Origin: a virus
Virus record (IMG/VR): IMGVR_UViG_3300045988_122195
Location: 50,227 to 114,226 of that record
Reading direction: 5' to 3' (one strand)
DNA: 64,000 nt
Shown: positions 3,422 to 38,019 of the stretch, in pieces
How positions within the stretch are numbered: position 1 is the stretch's first letter
How the letters are laid out: the number at the start of each line of letters is the position of its first letter
The notes under the pieces: generated by a model
The model's database searches: none
The model's input: the letters and a program-made list of their open reading frames with translations, nothing else
What the model was told of the DNA's origin: nothing
Program-made: the position numbers and the translations under genes

Positions 3422-4432
3422 TTGGTACAGAAAGCTAATACAATTGAGGAATTATTAAAAGGTTGTCCTGTAAATCAAACGATTTGTGATAATTTGATTC
3501 GTGCATGGGCAATTATCAACAATGATAAATATGAGAAAATCATTTGTTCAATTTCAGGCGGTTCAGACAGTGATGTGATGTTAGATATCGTTTGGAGATG
3601 TGACAAAGACAATAAAGTAGATTATGTATGGTTTGATACTGGATTAGAATATCGAGCCACAAAAGAGCATTTAAAATATCTTGAAGAAAAATATGATATT
3701 ACGTTTCATTCTTATAGGGCTATAAAACCTATTCCAACGTCCTGCAAGGAATATGGACAACCGTTTTTATCAAAACAAGTCAGTGAATTTATCCAAAGAT
3801 TACAAAAACATAATTTTCAATGGGAAGATGAAGATTTCAACACATTATATAAGAAATATCCAAAATGTAAGTCTGCCTTAGAGTGGTGGTGTTGTAACAA
3901 AGGTAATGACAGTTGCTTTAATATTACCAGGAACAAATGGTTAAAAGAATTTATGGTTGCTAATCCACCAACATTTAATATTTCAAACAAGTGTTGTAAA
4001 TATGCAAAAAAAGATGTTGCACATAGCATTGTAAAGTATGGAATAGACGGTAAATTATTTGATCTACAGATTATAGGTATTAGGAAAGCTGAAGGTGGTG
4101 CTAGATCAACAGCGTACAAATCATGCTTTGACGACAATAATGACATTGACAATTATAGACCTCTATTCTGGTACAAAGATTCAGATAAAGAAGATTATGA
4201 GAAAGTGTATGGAATTGTTCATAGTGATTGTTATTCGGAATATGGTTTAAAGCGCACTGGTTGCTGTGGTTGCCCTTATGGTAGAGATTTTGAGAATGAA
4301 TTAGATGTAATTAAGAAGTATGAACCTAAACTGTATAAAGCAGTAACAAATATTTTCAAGGATTCTTATGAATATACAAGAAAGTATGTGGAGTTTAGAA
4401 AAATGATGGATGAGAAGGAGAGAATAAGATAA
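3422..4432 (+). CDS. PAPS reductase-like / PP-loop ATPase family protein (paralog of 1575..2855)
   Basis: 336 aa; canonical PP-loop ISGGSDSDVMLDIV; C-terminal CCGCPYG cluster; TTG start preceded by gaggaaag RBS. Confidence 0.7.
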   Translation: MVQKANTIEELLKGCPVNQTICDNLIRAWAIINNDKYEKIICSISGGSDSDVMLDIVWRCDKDNKVDYVWFDTGLEYRATKEHLKYLEEKYDITFHSYRAIKPIPTSCKEYGQPFLSKQVSEFIQRLQKHNFQWEDEDFNTLYKKYPKCKSALEWWCCNKGNDSCFNITRNKWLKEFMVANPPTFNISNKCCKYAKKDVAHSIVKYGIDGKLFDLQIIGIRKAEGGARSTAYKSCFDDNNDIDNYRPLFWYKDSDKEDYEKVYGIVHSDCYSEYGLKRTGCCGCPYGRDFENELDVIKKYEPKLYKAVTNIFKDSYEYTRKYVEFRKMMDEKERIR

Positions 4433-4674
4433 TGAAAATTAAAAACCTTAAAGACGTAGAAACATTTCTCAATGTAGTAAATGAATGCAAAGGCGATGTA
4501 ACTCTTACATCACAGTATGGAGATAAATTCAATCTTAAATCTGCATTGACACAGTATGTAGCTATTGCAGCGTTAGTCGGAGAGCATGGTGATGAACTTG
4601 AGCTGTGGTGTTCCGATAAGGAAGATGAGATGAAATTTCTCAAGATGTTTGATGAGAATCCAGAGATGGTATAG
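4432..4674 (+). CDS. hypothetical protein
   Basis: 80-aa ORF; start ATG overlaps stop of upstream gene (ataATGa); translational coupling. Confidence 0.5.
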   Translation: MKIKNLKDVETFLNVVNECKGDVTLTSQYGDKFNLKSALTQYVAIAALVGEHGDELELWCSDKEDEMKFLKMFDENPEMV

Positions 4675-33168: not shown

Positions 33169-33705
33169 TTGCATAGTGTCACAGCTATGCAGAGTATTTC
33201 TAAAAATAATATGAGAGGAAGTGATTATGTGGTTAATTTAGAACCACAAATGATACAAAAAGTACAAAAGTGTTTAGAAACACATGTTGGTGGCGAAGCA
33301 TATTTTAATGAATTAGATGCTGCAATTAAATCAGATGAAAATCTTTTGAAGTCTTTTATTAATCGCATTGTCATAGAAACGAAGTGTCGCAACTTTGTAA
33401 TGTCAGGTGAAATTGGTGTTGTGTATTCTAAGTTATATTCATACGATGACATTCATTTATTGTTACTGCCAGGTGGCTTGAGACACGATAAAGAAATTCC
33501 TTATGACATTGGGAGAATATATGAAGGAATGGAATTTGTATTCGTAGATGATTCATATTACTCAGGAAAAACTTTAAATGCTGTGAAGAAATATATGGAA
33601 TCTACTGGTGCAAAGGTCATTGCAAATTATGTTTTCTACGATGGAAGTATGGAGAATAAAGATAATGTGAGATCAATTTACAGATATTACGATTATCACA
33701 AGTAG
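33169..33705 (+). CDS. phosphoribosyltransferase-fold (PRTase-like) protein
   Basis: 178 aa; PRPP-loop-like MEFVFVDDSYYSGKTLNAV; start may be ATG 33211. Confidence 0.5.
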   Translation: MHSVTAMQSISKNNMRGSDYVVNLEPQMIQKVQKCLETHVGGEAYFNELDAAIKSDENLLKSFINRIVIETKCRNFVMSGEIGVVYSKLYSYDDIHLLLLPGGLRHDKEIPYDIGRIYEGMEFVFVDDSYYSGKTLNAVKKYMESTGAKVIANYVFYDGSMENKDNVRSIYRYYDYHK

Positions 33706-34378: not shown

Positions 34379-34816
34379 ATGAATTTTCCAGAAGCAACGA
34401 AGTATCTTCTTAATGGAGAATATATAAGAAGATTAAAATGGTATAAAGATTATTACATCAAACTTGAAAATGATGCAATTTTTGATAGTGATGGAACAGA
34501 TTTTTCAGGCACAATGTTCTCTATGGAAGATATTATCGCTAACGATTGGGAGCTATATCAGCCTAAATTAGAAGTAGGTACAGTTGTTCAACACCGTGAC
34601 GGTACAATCGGAATTATAGTCGATTTTTGCAATTTTAGCAATGAATGCTTCATTTTATGTGCGGATGGGTGTCTAGAAAAAGTTGATGAAAGCATGGTTT
34701 CATCTATAAAAAATGACGATAAGCTTGTAAAAAGATACATAAATTTTGCAAATGAAAATCTGAAAGCACTTGTTTCTACATTAGATACAATTTCGAATTT
34801 TGTAAATAAAGAGTAG
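34379..34816 (+). CDS. hypothetical protein
   Basis: 145-aa ORF. Confidence 0.5.
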   Translation: MNFPEATKYLLNGEYIRRLKWYKDYYIKLENDAIFDSDGTDFSGTMFSMEDIIANDWELYQPKLEVGTVVQHRDGTIGIIVDFCNFSNECFILCADGCLEKVDESMVSSIKNDDKLVKRYINFANENLKALVSTLDTISNFVNKE

Positions 34817-34866: not shown

Positions 34867-35511
34867 ATGAGTACAATTGAGAAAATGACGGTTCACAAAG
34901 CATTGGCGGAGTTAAAGATTATTGATTCCAGAATAGAGAGATCAATTGATGATGCACAGTTCTGTGTGGCAAACAAACATTCTAATGAAAAAATTAATGG
35001 TATTCCGGTTGAAGATGCTAAGAAATTAATGGTAGGAAGCTACGATAAAGCATCTGATCTTATTAAGAGAAGAAATGCAATCAAGAGAGCGGTTGTTCTT
35101 TCTAACGCAAAGACAATTGTTACGATTGCAGACAGAGAATATACTGTTGCAGAAGCAATTGAGATGAAAAATCATGGCATTGACTTTGAGGAACTTCTTT
35201 TAAATGAAATGAGATGTCAATACGCAGACGCTAATAGAACTATCTCAGCAGAGAATGGCGAAAAACTGAGCGAAAGAGCAGATAAGTTTGTCATTGACAT
35301 GTATGGATCAAAAGAGGGTAAAACAAATACTGCTGATTTTGAGAAAGCAAAGAAAGATTTCATTACAGCGAATTCTTATGATCTGATTGATCCACTTGAT
35401 ATTAAGAAGAAGATTGATGGATTAGAAGAATATATCTCAAACTTCAAAACAGAAGTAGATGCTGTATTGAGTGTTAGTAATGCTATTACAGAAATTACTG
35501 TAGAGTATTAG
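34867..35511 (+). CDS. hypothetical protein
   Basis: 214 aa; RBS aaaggagaaaaatATG. Confidence 0.55.
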   Translation: MSTIEKMTVHKALAELKIIDSRIERSIDDAQFCVANKHSNEKINGIPVEDAKKLMVGSYDKASDLIKRRNAIKRAVVLSNAKTIVTIADREYTVAEAIEMKNHGIDFEELLLNEMRCQYADANRTISAENGEKLSERADKFVIDMYGSKEGKTNTADFEKAKKDFITANSYDLIDPLDIKKKIDGLEEYISNFKTEVDAVLSVSNAITEITVEY

Positions 35512-36149
35512 AGAATATATAGATAGGAAATTATTTCACTGTTTGCTGAAAACTTAGAACTACAATCATTCAGACTTTTGCAAGTATAGCCTGAATAAAA
35601 ATAATAAAGAAACTTGAAAACATCCTAAAGCATAAAAGGTAAGTAGAAAATATGTGAGAATGCTTGATGCACAGTGTCAAGCGTTATATTACAAGATGAC
35701 TGTAAAGAGTAAAGTTCAAATGTCAAGTAGTAAAGCTCAAAATTCAAAGATTATGTTTTGTGTAAAGTTTAAGTAACAAATAGTAAAGATATAAAGTTTT
35801 ATAAAATCTTCGATTAACAGTTTTTCAGTATGATTGTACTTGGCTGTAAGTTGTCTGCGAAGCTGGTAAATGGTGAATTAGTTTATAAGTGTCAGCCTGC
35901 ATAATAATATGCATAGTTGTCGTGTGGGTTGACAAATAAGCACCCAAGGTGATGCGGTACGTTGCACCTGGCTTATATCCAGCGATTCTCCGTTCGACTC
36001 GGAGTGGGTGTACTGTATCTGAATATTCACAGAATGTGTTATTCGTTTCCTTTCTTTCTATGAACATTCTAGTTCAGATGCAATGTTTTTCATAACTTCC
36101 TTTTTTGGGGGTTGGCAACTTACCCTGGAGACAAAAAAGTTGCAAATAA

Positions 36150-36300
36150 AAATATGGTGGATGACAGCAACGGAACGAAATTTGTTGTGCATGACAAATT
36201 CTAGTATGAGTAGGAACGCTGTGGTTGTAAGTGAAGTTGTTAAGAAGATGCACATTCGAAGCAATGAATCTTATAAAGGTGGTTCGAATCCACCATCCAT
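36150..36300 (+). ncRNA. candidate structured RNA element with tRNA T-arm-like hairpin
   Basis: GGTGGTTCGAATCCACC (36278-36294; 5-bp stem, TTCGAAT loop); perfect 7-bp hairpin AATTTGT-TGTGCATG-ACAAATT (approx 36178-36200); GGTGGAT (36157-36163) complementary to ATCCACC about 130 nt downstream; no ORF. Confidence 0.3.
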
Positions 36301-36670
36301 CTTTTAATTTCAAAACCCGTCGTTCAGCCTGTATGGTGAGCAATAATTAGAGAATTGGAACAAAAGCCTTAAATGAACGTAAAACAAAAGGAATCGAAGT
36401 ACAAGATTCTGGAGTAGACCTAGACACAGTACCGTTATAAGATAGCTCATAAACTGAAAAGATATATGTTTTTGAGTGAAAAAAGTAAGTAAAGAATGAA
36501 ATGCTGAAAAAATCTTATGAAACAGAAATAGAAATCGCTCAAATTGCCACAATGTTATGAAAGGTCATTGTGGAAATCCAATGGGCTGTGGTGAATAAGT
36601 AAACACATAGCTACATTAATGGGAGCGTTACCCATCAGCCTAGTTAAATACAATTATATTATATAGTGAG

Positions 36671-37411
36671 GTGATAACAATAAGTGCATTAGTAGACAAT
36701 TATTCGAAAGAAGAATTAGAAAAAATTGTAAATGAATCATTTTCTATGGCAGAAGTTATTAGTAAATTAGGTTATAAAACAAGAAATGGCAGTAACGATA
36801 AAACAGTTAAAAAAAGATTAGAAAAATATAATATATCAACAAATCATTTTAGAAATCTTAGATGTGTTGAAAGAACACCACAAAATGTATTTTGTATTAA
36901 TAGCACAGTAACACAGAGTGTGTTAAGAAGGTGGTTCAAACGGATTAGTGATGATAGTAGATGTGAAATTTGTGGACAATTAAAATGTTGGAACAATAAA
37001 GATTTAACAATGATTTTAGATCACATAGATGGAGATAATCATAATAATCAGTTACAAAATTTAAGATGGATATGCCCAAATTGTAATAGTCAGCTTCCAA
37101 CCTTTGCAGGTAGAAATTTAAATAAAAGAATAAATTATATACCTATGAAAGATCGAAAAGCAAAGAAAAAAATTTGTCCAGTATGTAATATTAATGAAAT
37201 ACATCTTGAAAGCAAGATGTGTATTGATTGTAGAAACAAAGAAAAAGCAAAGAACATACCGCCAAAAGAAGAGTTGGAAAAGTTGATTTATGAAAAATCT
37301 TTTGTGGCAATTGGTAAGATATATGGGGTTTCAGATAATGCTGTTAGAAAATGGTGCAAAAAATATGGTTTGCCTTATAGATATGGTGAATTACATAAAT
37401 ATATAGCATAA
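36671..37411 (+). CDS. HNH homing endonuclease-like protein
   Basis: 246 aa, GTG start; HNH motif LDHIDGDNHNNQLQNLRWICPNCNSQ; extra CxxC pairs (CPVCN, CIDCRN); C-terminal HTH-like YGVSDNAVRKWCKKYGL. Confidence 0.6.
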   Translation: MITISALVDNYSKEELEKIVNESFSMAEVISKLGYKTRNGSNDKTVKKRLEKYNISTNHFRNLRCVERTPQNVFCINSTVTQSVLRRWFKRISDDSRCEICGQLKCWNNKDLTMILDHIDGDNHNNQLQNLRWICPNCNSQLPTFAGRNLNKRINYIPMKDRKAKKKICPVCNINEIHLESKMCIDCRNKEKAKNIPPKEELEKLIYEKSFVAIGKIYGVSDNAVRKWCKKYGLPYRYGELHKYIA

Positions 37412-37438
37412 CAAAAGATGTACAGAAATGCACATCGA

Positions 37439-37521
37439 ACTGGAATGGCGGAATGGCAGACGCACTTGACTTAAAATCAAGCGGTGAAAACACCATACGA
37501 GTTCAAATCTCGTTGCCAGTA
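37439..37521 (+). tRNA. tRNA-Leu (anticodon TAA), type II with long variable arm
   Basis: Acceptor ACTGGAA/TGCCAGT (one A-G mismatch), D arm GCG-GAATGGCAGA-CGC, anticodon stem CTTGA/TCAAG with loop CTTAAAA, variable arm GGTG-AAAA-CACC, T arm ACGAG-TTCAAAT-CTCGT, discriminator A; no encoded CCA. Confidence 0.8.
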
Positions 37522-37524
37522 TTA

Positions 37525-37634
37525 GCCATATGAGACCTTCATTCCTTGAGCAAGAATGATGAAATCGGTACAAAAATGCTCAATTCTGTATTTTACATTC
37601 GTGTGTTATGCGAGCAGCACGAATGACATATGGC
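37525..37634 (+). other. structured spacer between the tRNA genes
   Basis: 8-bp long-range complement GCCATATG (37525-37532) / CATATGGC (37627-37634) enclosing two hairpins: TTCATTC-CTTGAGCAAG-AATGATGAA and CATTCGTG (37596-37603) / CACGAATG (37618-37625). Confidence 0.3.
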
Positions 37635-37674
37635 ATTACCCCAACATAGGGTATTTACATTTTACAAAATGGTT

Positions 37675-37744
37675 TGACTGTTAGCTCAGATGGGAGAGTA
37701 TCTATTGCAAGAGAGGGTCGCAGGTTCGAATCCTGTACAGTCAA
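37675..37744 (+). tRNA. tRNA-like element (possible tRNA-Cys GCA or Ala TGC, or pseudo-tRNA) with non-canonical anticodon arm
   Basis: Perfect acceptor TGACTGT/ACAGTCA, D arm GCTC-AGATGGGA-GAGT, canonical T arm GCAGG-TTCGAAT-CCTGT; only 19 nt between D stem and T stem, so no clean 5-bp/7-nt anticodon arm; contains TTGCAA. Confidence 0.45.
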
Positions 37745-38019
37745 CTCGTCGCAGAAGACATTTGATTTTTGCATTCATGTTTTGCACACCTCCTTTCTTA
37801 AAGTGCAAAGTAGGTTGTTAGTTCATTGGTAGAACATCTTATTGAAAAATAATGCAGTCCTGTTCTTTTCGCTTTCTCAACGATGTAATGCATTATAATA
37901 GGAAGAAACACGTTCGAGTCGTGTACAATCTATTAGTCTTGGTTGACTTACCACTTTCAAACGAGGACTTAAAATTCGGTAGTAAAGTGGAGAATAATAT
38001 TAATAGGTGGTGAAAAATT

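What the first reader, a model, noticed from the sequence alone, without database searches (positions are those of the whole stretch)
35520..36670. 1.15-kb ORF-free, hairpin-rich region in an otherwise saturated coding landscape, with a tRNA T-arm-like motif and direct repeats
No plus-strand ORF of 60 aa or more occurs across about 1150 nt, although the neighbouring genes are packed end-to-end.

Several structured or repeated elements were read from the sequence:
- Imperfect direct repeats AGTAAAG(T/C)TCAAA (35708..35720 and 35729..35741), with further GTAAAG copies at about 35762 and 35781.
- A CCCAAGGTG ... GATTCTCCGTTCGACTCGG segment (35942..36010) that superficially recalls tmRNA motifs.
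- A perfect 7-bp hairpin AATTTGT/ACAAATT (about 36178..36200).
- A canonical T-arm GGTGG-TTCGAAT-CCACC (36278..36294), whose 3' flank ATCCACC is complementary to GGTGGAT at 36157..36163.

The region sits directly upstream of an HNH homing-endonuclease-like gene and the tRNA cluster. It could be a structured ncRNA (tRNA-like or tmRNA-like element), a group I intron remnant associated with the HNH gene, or an origin or iteron region.
Basis: seen in the sequence. Interest (0 to 1): 0.6.

Follow-up and report, generated by a model that had tools for sequence, protein, structure and literature searches.

The report
Phage RNA-gene island with heptad-repeat RNA
The "empty" 1.15 kb is a row of phage RNA genes, including an apparently undescribed structured RNA (a dozen 7-base repeats plus a three-stem domain) that sits directly after the same protein gene in very distant phages, including the T5 relatives of E. 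coli.

Summary
The gap is real non-coding DNA. All three stop codons occur in all six frames, and the one 74-aa ORF is broken in relatives. It is not one element but a row of plus-strand RNA genes.

- **RAGATH-27 (Rfam RF03100), 35535-35618.** It starts 23 nt after the stop of a 214-aa gene and folds as a pseudoknot.
- **Heptad-array RNA, 35699-35880, no Rfam match.** This RNA follows homologues of the same protein gene in all 85 related viral loci. It also does so in 4 of 4 bacterial-genome hits found through an RNA pattern alone, and in 8 of 8 distant isolates (T5-like, Vibrio, Pseudomonas, Klebsiella, Erwinia, Brevibacillus, Clostridioides, Dulem virus).
- **Non-canonical tRNA-Ile(UAU), 35940-36013.**
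- **147-nt tRNA-like RNA, 36156-36302.**
- **Decayed tRNA-Gln, 36582-36643.** Its anticodon loop is deleted, and an HNH gene is inserted at its 3' end.

No tmRNA, group I intron or origin signature was found.

Most likely (inferred), the heptad lattice is a multivalent protein-binding platform, probably for the neighbouring protein.

The parts
34867..35511 (+). 214-aa protein gene (PHROG 1491 family, often mislabelled 'tail fiber protein'). It is the invariable upstream partner of the RNAs.
   Evidence: - PHROG 1491, E = 1e-55. No Pfam, NCBIfam or significant PDB sequence match.
- 709 phage records and 4245 database proteins carry homologues.
35535..35618 (+). RAGATH-27 RNA (Rfam RF03100). It has a conserved single-stranded 5' half and an H-type pseudoknot: S1 35568-35576 with 35588-35596, and S2 35581-35585 with 35612-35616.
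   Evidence: - cmscan 76.1 bits, equal to the gathering score.
- Found in 78 of 80 related loci, 49-286 nt upstream of the heptad RNA.
- S1 is 92.6% paired against 20-47% when the partner is slid; S2 is 80% against 29-52%.
- It starts 23 nt after the stop codon.
35699..35880 (+). Heptad-array RNA (no Rfam family), made of:
- tentative closing helix P0: 35699-35703 with 35870-35874
- heptad array 1: 7 nnYAAAG units, 35700-35749
- U-rich linker: 35750-35761
- heptad array 2: 5 units, 35762-35796
- P1: 35808-35812 with 35858-35862
- P2: 35818-35820 with 35855-35857
- P3: 35826-35829 with 35843-35846
- conserved 3' tail CUGGUAAAUGGUGAAU
   Evidence: - Present in 80 of 80 loci (nhmmer E = 1e-54 to 1e-10). 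Nucleotide identity is 70-78% where the neighbouring protein is only 51-64% identical.
- Covariation: 95.4% of cells paired against 33-49% when slid; 11 of 17 pairs change on both sides. In the wider set, 94.7% against 34-44%.
- Model R1 gives 102.7 bits here, and this is the only strong hit in the window.
- 7-nt periodicity z = 3.7.
- No Rfam match at E<=10.
35940..36013 (+). Non-canonical tRNA-Ile(UAU)-like gene.
   Evidence: - ARAGORN draws a cloverleaf with a 7-bp acceptor stem, a TTCGACT T-loop and a CTTATAT anticodon loop. It also has A8, a D-stem with two wobble pairs and one anticodon-stem mismatch.
- The Rfam tRNA model does not report it even at E<=10 in 401 nt.
- It is 100% identical in L001, L003, L004 and L005, although the flanks are 82-93% identical.
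36146..36570 (+). 425-nt insertion relative to relatives L002 and L005, in which tRNA-Gln follows directly. It carries the tRNA-like RNA and a 268-nt stretch of unknown role.
   Evidence: - Breakpoints from pairwise blastn.
- In L006 the two sub-modules (36155-36305 and 36312-36585) sit at different places.
- 36306-36590 has fold z = -0.33.
36156..36302 (+). 147-nt tRNA-like RNA, made of:
- acceptor stem GGUGGAU/AUCCAUC (with one G-U pair)
- canonical T-arm at 36278-36294
- enlarged 'anticodon' arm
   Evidence: - The MFE fold is a four-arm cloverleaf.
- Conservation starts exactly at GGTGGAT and ends at ATCCATCT, with unrelated flanks in L081-L085 and L087.
- Nine distinct versions are all exactly 147 nt. 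394 of 396 pair cells are canonical, and 4 pairs show two-sided compensation.
- About 90% nt identity in phages whose neighbouring protein is only 51-56% identical.
- Not called by ARAGORN even with relaxed or intron settings, nor by Rfam.
36582..36643 (+). Decayed tRNA-Gln pseudogene.
   Evidence: - Aligns to ARAGORN tRNA-Gln(UUG) of L001 (5710-5783) but lacks 11 nt, AGCTTTGACCT, which is the anticodon loop and inner stem.
- Not called by ARAGORN in the window.
36644..37413 (+). Inserted free-standing HNH endonuclease gene (ORF 36671-37411, 246 aa).
   Evidence: - PHROG 10822 HNH endonuclease, E = 8.5e-42. The Pfam HNH_3 match is weak.
- The segment is absent from L001, L002, L004 and L005, where the flanks are contiguous.
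37439..37745 (+). Continuation of the tRNA array: tRNA-Leu(UAA) 37439-37521 and an odd tRNA with a 6-nt anticodon loop at 37675-37745.
   Evidence: ARAGORN. Rfam tRNA 54.2 and 45.3 bits.

Best explanation
The gap is a plus-strand RNA-gene island of a large (about 150-200 kb), AT-rich gut phage whose host is probably a member of the Clostridia.

**Shown**
- Directly after the stop codon of a conserved 214-aa gene comes the RAGATH-27 pseudoknot.
- Next comes a roughly 180-nt structured RNA. About 12 mostly unpaired nnYAAAG heptads (7, a linker, then 5) are followed by a covarying three-stem domain. A short terminal helix (tentative) may enclose the whole array.
- Then follow a non-canonical tRNA-Ile(UAU), a 147-nt tRNA-like RNA and a dead tRNA-Gln. 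A homing-type HNH gene is inserted at the 3' end of the dead tRNA-Gln, and further tRNAs follow.
- The pair of protein gene and heptad RNA is conserved, in this order and on the same strand, across phages of Pseudomonadota and Bacillota.

**Inferred**
- The RNAs are co-transcribed with the protein gene. There are only 9-25 nt between the stop codon and the first motif, and no plus-strand terminator is predicted before the tRNAs.
- The heptad RNA is released by processing. RNase P cleavage at the adjoining tRNA would set its 3' end.
- Its evenly spaced, single-stranded heptads act as a multivalent lattice for an oligomeric or cooperatively binding protein, most plausibly the product of the adjacent gene. 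The three-stem domain would serve as anchor or nucleation site.
- The result would be an RNP, or a titration or autoregulatory device. This is analogous in principle to the TRAP and HutP repeat sites, the CsrB sponge, and the phage T4 gene 32 operator (a pseudoknot plus UAAA repeats, with a 7-nt binding site size).

The confidence of 0.45 is for the whole statement. The anatomy and the gene-RNA linkage stand at about 0.85-0.9, and the protein-lattice mechanism at about 0.35.
For: **Anatomy**
- No coding frame under any stop-codon reading.
- RAGATH-27 scores at its gathering score, and its pseudoknot is supported by pair counts.
- Heptad RNA:
  - 80 of 80 loci carry it.
  - 95.4% of cells paired against 33-49% when slid; 11 of 17 pairs change on both sides; 0 of 500 shuffles reach the observed values for cells paired, cells changed on both sides and the covariation score. 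The model-fitted wider alignment gives 94.7%.
  - The U-G/U-A and G-U/G-C alternations in P0 fit only a plus-strand RNA.
  - Relatives have hairpins inserted between heptads (L074, L076, L078, L080, L075).
- Periodicity peaks at lag 7 in all ten phages tested, even where the heptad sequence differs.
- The heptad region folds no better than shuffles (z = +0.93), as expected for a stretch kept single-stranded.

**Link to the protein gene**
- All 85 viral loci that hold the gene carry the RNA downstream of it.
- 4 of 4 true hits from an RNA-only pattern scan of bacterial genomes have the gene immediately upstream on the same strand.
- 8 of 8 distant isolates have an unannotated 260-475-nt gap after the gene that contains heptads plus AAAUC-P1...P1'-CUG.
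- 440 T5-like records keep this gap at 90-100% identity, and almost none annotates it.

**Co-transcription and processing**
- No plus-strand terminator-like site lies between 34867 and 36278.
- In 27 of 60 distinct loci a same-strand tRNA starts within 60 nt downstream. The gap is 1-5 nt in KpS8, Dulem virus 39, L033 and L037.
Against: - There are no expression data. RNA ends, processing and stability are all inferred.
- The protein has no recognisable RNA-binding domain or known fold relative. Conserved synteny could merely reflect co-transcription.
- A host factor or another phage protein could be the ligand of the heptads.
- Covariance-model scores in the most distant phages are weak (17-31 bits, E = 0.006-5). 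They are convincing only because each lies at the expected place. Erwinia phage Simmy50 was recognised by eye only.
- P0 rests mostly on invariant or wobble positions.
- The largest clade (L007-like) has no tRNA near the RNA, so processing by RNase P cannot be general.
- tRNA-Ile(UAU) fails the Rfam tRNA model and could be non-functional despite its perfect conservation.
Confidence: 0.45

Rival explanations
1. The RNA is a cis-acting part of the transcript rather than a trans-acting RNP. RAGATH-27 and the heptad RNA would form the 3' UTR of the protein gene and the leader of the tRNA array. They would control mRNA 3'-end stability, processing, or read-through into the tRNAs and downstream genes, possibly through binding of the upstream protein (autoregulation).
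For: - The first motif starts 9-25 nt after the stop codon in the window, L007, Dulem virus 39 and Jenst.
- Strand and order are always the same.
- tRNAs often follow within 60 nt.
- No terminator is predicted in between.
Against: - The three-stem domain has no U-tract or alternative-pairing features of an attenuator.
- What lies downstream is not conserved: tRNAs of six different identities, or ORFs, or nothing within 1.6 kb.
- The spacer between the two motifs varies from 49 to 286 nt.
Confidence: 0.25
2. The heptad RNA, and perhaps the odd tRNA-like RNAs, are decoys or sponges for a host factor. The factor could be a sequence-specific ribonuclease or tRNA-targeting defence enzyme, or a global RNA-binding protein. 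In that case they would be anti-defence or host-takeover RNAs.
For: - The neighbourhood is an accessory island: a Tad2-like anti-Thoeris domain protein at 34379-34816, tRNAs, and HNH insertions.
- The multivalent repeat design resembles known sponge RNAs (general knowledge).
- Non-canonical tRNAs are kept under strong conservation.
Against: - Nothing known recognises YAAAG.
- The heptad sequence drifts between phage groups while the 7-nt register is kept (UUAAG/UUACG in Vibrio phage Quinn). This suits a co-evolving phage partner better than host factors shared across phyla.
- The strict linkage to one phage protein gene remains unexplained.
Confidence: 0.15
3. It is a DNA-level element: a replication origin, iterons, a packaging site, or a promoter or operator array made of the repeats.
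For: - The stretch is AT-rich and repetitive, and replication genes lie 4-14 kb downstream.
- Promoter-like hexamers occur, but not above the shuffled expectation (18 found against 14.9 +/- 5.0).
Against: - The stems covary with G-U pairs that are valid on one strand only.
- A 7-nt register does not match the helical repeat of DNA.
- Hairpins are inserted between repeats in relatives.
- Cumulative GC skew shows no inflection.
- The units are far shorter than iterons.
Confidence: 0.03
4. One reading: a tmRNA-like element, or a group I intron remnant tied to the HNH gene.
For: - A T-arm and acceptor-like pairing exist.
- An HNH gene is adjacent.
Against: - ARAGORN finds no tmRNA, and Rfam finds no tmRNA or intron match at E<=10.
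- The 147-nt unit has no tag ORF or pseudoknot body.
- The HNH segment is a simple insertion between tRNA genes.
Confidence: 0.02

Closest known systems
RAGATH-27 RNA motif (Rfam RF03100)
   Same: 35535-35618 matches the family model over its full length at the gathering score. Related phages score 77-97 bits.
   Different: - The Rfam model shown covers only 86 nt and one hairpin. Here a second helix (S1) makes it a pseudoknot.
- It is always followed by the heptad RNA, which the family does not include.
- I found no function reported for it: the name occurs in none of the searchable papers.
skipping-rope, drum and DUF3800 RNA motifs (Weinberg et al. 2017, PMC5737381): orphan structured RNAs with a 'compelling association' to one neighbouring protein gene
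   Same: - The kind of evidence and situation is the same: a conserved RNA tied to one protein family of unknown function.
- In Brevibacillus phage Jenst a skipping-rope RNA (67.6 bits) occupies exactly the slot of RAGATH-27, 9 nt after the homologous gene.
   Different: - The heptad RNA matches none of these models.
- Those motifs can lie on either side and either strand of their gene. This one is always downstream on the same strand.
Repeat-type protein-binding RNAs: TRAP sites in the trp leader, HutP sites, CsrB/RsmZ sponges, and the phage T4 gene 32 translational operator (from general knowledge)
   Same: - Short motifs are repeated at a fixed spacing in an unstructured stretch.
- HutP sites have a 7-nt register (NAG plus 4 spacer nt).
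- The T4 gene 32 operator combines a pseudoknot with (U)UAAA repeats, and gp32 covers about 7 nt. Here a pseudoknot (RAGATH-27) precedes UAAAG heptads.
   Different: - No cognate protein has been shown.
- The motif is YAAAG, not (G/U)AG or GGA.
- There are about 12 units in a 7+5 arrangement.
- No ORF or terminator lies downstream to be regulated.
- The resemblance is recalled from memory and was not tested.
GOLLD and ROOL large RNAs
   Same: Phage or prophage RNAs often located next to tRNA genes, possibly co-transcribed with them (PMC5737381).
   Different: - No Rfam match to either.
- This RNA is far smaller and simpler, and has a repeat array that those RNAs lack.
Phage T4 stable RNAs C and D (species 1 and 2) and bacterial Y RNA-like YrlA: tRNA-like RNAs encoded in or near tRNA clusters (from general knowledge)
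   Same: - The 147-nt RNA at 36156-36302 has an acceptor stem and a canonical T-arm and sits in a tRNA array, like T4 species 1 RNA (about 140 nt).
- A partial YrlA hit lies between the homologous gene and the heptad RNA in Erwinia phage Simmy50.
   Different: - No sequence or model match in the window.
- In YrlA the ends lie in the Ro-binding stem. Here they lie in the acceptor stem.

Membership tests
RAGATH-27 (RF03100) | Covariance-model score at or above the curated gathering score, over the full-length model | tested here: met
   76.1 bits against a gathering score of 76.1, model positions 1-86.
RAGATH-27 (RF03100) | Conserved hairpin supported by compensatory changes | tested here: met
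   S2 is 80% paired against 29-52% when slid. The additional S1 is 92.6% against 20-47%.
tRNA (RF00005), for 35940-36013 | Cloverleaf with 7-bp acceptor stem, 7-nt anticodon loop with U33, and a T-loop of TTCRANY type | tested here: met
   ARAGORN drawing: tRNA-Ile(tat), 74 nt.
tRNA (RF00005), for 35940-36013 | Rfam tRNA model score of at least 29 bits, and conserved core positions (U8, Watson-Crick D-stem) | tested here: not met
   No tRNA match at E<=10 in 1401 nt or in 401 nt. It has A8, a D-stem with U-G and G-U pairs, and a C-C mismatch in the anticodon stem.
tRNA, for 36156-36302 | Length about 70-95 nt with a standard D-arm and a 7-nt anticodon loop | tested here: not met
   147 nt. The D-arm is about 58 nt and the anticodon arm about 52 nt, with an 8-nt loop. 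Not called by ARAGORN, even with intron or relaxed settings, nor by Rfam.
tRNA-like RNA, for 36156-36302 | Acceptor stem plus canonical T-arm at the 3' end, behaving as one gene unit | tested here: met
   - GGUGGAU/AUCCAUC plus GGUGG-UUCGAAU-CCACC.
- Unit boundaries coincide with the stem ends in 6 unrelated contexts.
- 394 of 396 pair cells are canonical.
tmRNA | tRNA-Ala-like domain with G3-U70, a tag reading frame and pseudoknots; detection by ARAGORN or Rfam | tested here: not met
   No tmRNA in the window and no Rfam tmRNA hit. The G-U pair in the acceptor stem is at position 2, not 3.
Group I intron | Match to the Rfam Intron_gpI core (P3-P9); insertion within a host gene | tested here: not met
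   No hit at E<=10. The HNH segment lies between tRNA genes, not within one.
Iteron-type replication origin | Several direct repeats of about 17-22 bp with an adjacent AT-rich unwinding region, and a strand-skew switch | tested here: not met
   The repeat unit is 7 nt. Cumulative GC skew is monotonic. The stems covary as RNA.
TRAP/HutP-type repeat RNA | Regularly spaced short motifs in a single-stranded stretch | tested here: met
   - The autocorrelation peak is at lag 7 in 8 of 10 phages and at lag 8 by 0.01-0.03 in L089 and Simmy50; z at lag 7 is 2.9-7.0 in all ten.
- The region does not fold better than shuffles.
TRAP/HutP-type repeat RNA | Binding by a cognate ring-shaped oligomer (TRAP or HutP homologue) | not testable with these tools
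   - No TRAP or HutP family was found among the flanking genes scanned.
- The adjacent protein has an unknown fold.
GOLLD / ROOL | Match to the Rfam models | tested here: not met
   No hit in the window at the gathering score or at E<=10.

The most novel reading that the evidence does not exclude
The heptad-array RNA and the 214-aa protein form a previously unrecognised ribonucleoprotein shared by many phage lineages, from T5-like coliphages to gut Clostridia phages. About a dozen protein subunits would read a 7-nt register on the RNA. Given its constant placement at tRNA arrays, its role would lie in tRNA or RNA metabolism or in counter-defence. RAGATH-27, skipping-rope and other pseudoknots would be interchangeable 5' modules of the same system.
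Probability: 0.3. Interest if true: 0.8.

Novelty: new member of a known kind. Interest (0 to 1): 0.62.

Why it matters
- **A new RNA in a model phage group.** A structured RNA absent from Rfam 15, and unannotated in almost all of 440 T5-like genomes, is conserved together with one protein of unknown function across phages of distant bacterial phyla. Because T5-like coliphages carry it, its expression, processing, protein binding and deletion phenotype can be tested directly in a tractable system.
- **Context for orphan motifs.** RAGATH-27 and skipping-rope occupy the same slot after the same gene family. This gives both motifs a genomic context and a candidate partner.
- **Better annotation.** Several small "hypothetical proteins" are called over these RNAs, for example in Dulem virus 39. 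The label "tail fiber protein" for this family is probably wrong.
- **tRNA island turnover.** The window shows how fast phage tRNA islands change: a dead tRNA-Gln, an HNH insertion, and a mobile 147-nt tRNA-like RNA.

Tried and rejected
- **Hidden gene with recoded stops.** Rejected: all three stop codons occur in all six frames.
- **74-aa ORF 36083-36307 and minus-strand ORFs.** They have no family match, and the ORF is broken in relatives.
- **Near-identical phage genomes in INPHARED.** None found. A distant search hit only Dulem virus 39, over the heptad RNA.
- **Single-sequence folding.** It does not recover or favour the conserved structure.
- **Search for further helices.** An all-against-all column scan gave only G-U-driven noise. 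A possible pairing between the P3 loop and a heptad did not hold across clades.
- **Literature.**
  - The name RAGATH-27 occurs in none of the searchable papers, and no supplement text is held for PMC5737381.
  - No paper holds all three terms 'bacteriophage T5', 'stable RNA' and 'tRNA genes'.
  - A broader search ('bacteriophage T5', 'non-coding RNA', 'tRNA') returned 17 papers, none evidently about T5-encoded small RNAs by title or abstract.
- **Genome-wide pattern scan.** It returned mostly chance matches: 4 of the 80 listed loci were real after filtering with the covariance model.
- **Sigma-70 promoter inside the conserved 5' half of RAGATH-27.** No hexamer pair with 16-18 nt spacing fits.
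Full report

The stretch between the 214-aa ORF (34867-35511) and the HNH ORF (36671-37411) is truly non-coding. Each of the six frames contains TAA, TAG and TGA, so no stop-codon reassignment rescues a gene. None of the small ORFs has a PHROG match.

The statement "no plus-strand ORF of 60 aa or more" is slightly wrong, because 36083-36307 encodes 74 aa. That ORF is frameshifted in L004 and has an in-frame stop in four other relatives. Its first third lies outside the conserved unit it overlaps.

"Hairpin-rich" is not borne out by thermodynamics. The z-scores are +0.93, -1.42 and -0.33 for the three main sub-regions. G+C does rise to 0.38-0.41 between 35850 and 36450, against about 0.30 around it.

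**2. What the window is**

All long ORFs are on the plus strand. They include a DnaE-type polymerase, a helicase, a RecJ-like exonuclease, an NAD-dependent ligase and NrdD.

Relatives are 85-205-kb viral contigs, largely from gut metagenomes. There is no near-identical isolate. An RNA-pattern scan of bacterial genomes found the locus in Ruminococcus sp. AM36-2AA, in a Christensenellales MAG and a Bacillota MAG, and in Chengkuizengella. The host is therefore probably a member of the Bacillota, most likely Clostridia.

**3. The gap is a mosaic**

Comparison with 80 loci fetched through the upstream protein shows two blocks that are conserved everywhere. These are 35512-35621 and 35699-35887. The rest is shared only with the closest relatives.

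(a) **35535-35618 is RAGATH-27.**
- Rfam RF03100 scores 76.1 bits, equal to its gathering score. It is found in 78 of 80 loci.
- The alignment shows a second helix, S1 (35568-35576 with 35588-35596). It interleaves with the Rfam hairpin S2 (35581-35585 with 35612-35616), which makes an H-type pseudoknot.
- S1 is 92.6% paired against 20-47% when the partner is slid. S2 is 80% against 29-52%.
- The motif starts 23 nt after the stop codon.

(b) **35699-35880 is a structured RNA with no Rfam match at E<=10.**
- Its 5' two-thirds consist of heptads nnYAAAG: seven units (35700-49), a U-rich linker, then five more (35762-96).
- The lag-7 autocorrelation has z = 3.7 here and 2.9-7.0 in nine homologues.
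- Its 3' third forms P1 (CUUCG/CGAAG), P2 and P3.
- On a 28-sequence MAFFT alignment, 95.4% of cells pair, against 33-49% for slid partners. Eleven of 17 pairs change on both sides, and no shuffle out of 500 reaches the observed values for cells paired, cells changed on both sides or the covariation score.
- P1 is CUUCG/CGAAG here. Elsewhere it is CCUUG/CAAGG, CCCUG/CAGGG, CCAUG/CAUGG, CCAGG/CCUGG, CCUAG/CUAGG or CUAGG/CCUAG.
- A short helix P0 (35699-35703 with 35870-35874) may close the whole array. It varies only through U-G/U-A and G-U/G-C changes, which work only on the plus strand.
- Distant relatives carry extra hairpins inserted between heptads. This is an RNA-like way of varying.
- The heptad stretch folds no better than shuffles, which fits a stretch kept single-stranded.

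- It is unusual: it has A8, a wobble-rich D-stem and a C-C mismatch. The Rfam tRNA model does not report it at all.
- It is nevertheless 100% identical in four relatives whose flanks are 82-93% identical.

(d) **36146-36570 is an insertion relative to L002 and L005.** It holds a 147-nt tRNA-like RNA at 36156-36302.
- In six other contexts, conservation begins and ends exactly at the acceptor stem, and the flanks are unrelated.
- Nine distinct versions all have 147 nt. 394 of 396 pair cells are canonical, and four pairs are compensated on both sides.
- It is about 90% identical in phages whose neighbouring protein is only 51-56% identical.

(e) **36582-36643 is a tRNA-Gln relic.** It lacks 11 nt that form the anticodon loop and inner stem in L001.

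(f) **36644-37413, carrying the HNH gene, is absent from four relatives.** It sits exactly at the relic's 3' end.

**4. The heptad RNA and the upstream gene form a conserved pair**

- The protein family (PHROG 1491) occurs in 709 phage records.
- In every distant isolate inspected, the gene is followed by an unannotated gap of 260-475 nt. These isolates are T5-like Gostya9, Vibrio phage Quinn, Pseudomonas PHB09, Klebsiella KpS8, Erwinia Simmy50, Brevibacillus Jenst and a Clostridioides phage (the last record has no annotation). The gap contains a 7-nt periodic array and AAAUC-P1...P1'-CUG.
- A covariance model of the 3' domain places its best hit there in seven of the eight loci searched (the isolates above plus Dulem virus 39). 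Scores range from 88 bits down to 17 bits, and the weakest are convincing only by position. Simmy50 was recognised by eye.
- Seeding from the RNA alone gives the same picture. All four true hits in bacterial genomes have the gene immediately upstream on the same strand.
- The T5-like gap is 90-100% identical in 440 records and almost never annotated.
- In Jenst a skipping-rope RNA occupies the slot that RAGATH-27 has here. Weinberg et al. noted that skipping-rope RNAs associate with a particular neighbouring protein.

**5. The protein**

- The AF2 model is confident (pLDDT 92.9). It shows a long helical bundle with a small sheet formed by the N-terminus, a central hairpin and the C-terminus.
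- The only structural relative is 3kdq, of unknown function. All viral matches are uncharacterised.
- Nothing supports the database label "tail fiber protein".

**6. Mechanism**

Shown:
- The anatomy of the island.
- The covariation in the stems.
- The 7-nt periodicity.
- The synteny between protein gene and RNA.

Inferred:
- *Co-transcription with the gene.* There is no room for a promoter between the stop codon and the first motif, and no terminator-like site before 36278 on the plus strand.
- *3'-end formation by RNase P where a tRNA abuts.* A same-strand tRNA lies within 60 nt in 27 of 60 distinct loci, and within 1-5 nt in several.
- *Function as a lattice for a multimeric or cooperative binder, most simply the adjacent protein.*

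The design recalls TRAP and HutP sites, CsrB, and the T4 gene 32 operator. These comparisons come from memory and were not tested.

A purely cis-regulatory role, or a decoy role against a host factor, remains possible. DNA-level roles are unlikely.

**7. Novelty**

RAGATH-27, tRNA islands and HNH insertions are ordinary. The heptad-array RNA is not in Rfam 15, and I found no description of it. A large-scale catalogue of candidate phage RNAs could nevertheless already contain it, and I could not check that. I therefore class it as a new member of the known kind "orphan structured RNA tied to one protein family". There is a moderate chance that it defines a new phage RNP.

Noticed in passing
window 37675-37745: A tRNA with a 6-nt anticodon loop. 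ARAGORN reports 'tRNA-???' with anticodon 'gc'; Rfam tRNA scores 45.3 bits. ARAGORN calls a 'gc' tRNA at the corresponding place in L001-L004.
   Followed up: no
L036 3844-3915; L081 2839-2918 (-); L082 5204-5283 (-): Suppressor-type tRNAs with anticodon UUA (would read UAA) in related phages. None is present in the window.
   Followed up: no
L001 3663-3835 (-), L003 3655-3827 (-): FuFi-1 RNA (RF02986, 67-68 bits) on the opposite strand, about 800 nt upstream of the 214-aa gene, in two close relatives. The window has no hit at the gathering score.
   Followed up: no
L094 2143-2220 (Brevibacillus phage Jenst): skipping-rope RNA (RF02924, 67.6 bits) starts 9 nt after the stop of the homologous gene. 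This is the same slot that RAGATH-27 occupies here. A BsrG match (119 bits) lies at 2678-2952.
   Followed up: partly
L096 2253-2316 (Erwinia phage Simmy50): Partial Y RNA-like (YrlA) match: 44.5 bits, below the gathering score of 69. It covers the tRNA-like part of the model and lies between the homologous gene and the heptad RNA.
   Followed up: no
window 34379-34816 and 33169-33705: A Tad2-like (anti-Thoeris) domain protein and a phosphoribosyltransferase-domain protein lie just upstream. The surrounding region therefore looks like an accessory or counter-defence island.
   Followed up: no
L090 (Dulem virus 39) 4154-4264, 4367-4480, 4465-4611: In this GenBank record, small 'hypothetical protein' CDSs are annotated over RAGATH-27, the heptad RNA and a tRNA. 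They are probably false gene calls.
   Followed up: partly
L097-L099 4643-6278: In another clade the 214-aa gene is followed by a gap of about 1.6 kb with no called genes. This is even larger than the gap in the window.
   Followed up: no
window 36014-36145: The spacer between tRNA-Ile and the insertion point is conserved in L001-L005. It contains a 7-bp hairpin, GCAACTT/AAGTTGC, with a 16-nt loop. Its role is unknown.
   Followed up: no
L050 2946-3073; L090 1-44: RAGATH-36 (103 bits) in one relative, and a truncated type II hammerhead match (35.2 bits, below the gathering score of 37) at the edge of the Dulem virus locus.
   Followed up: no
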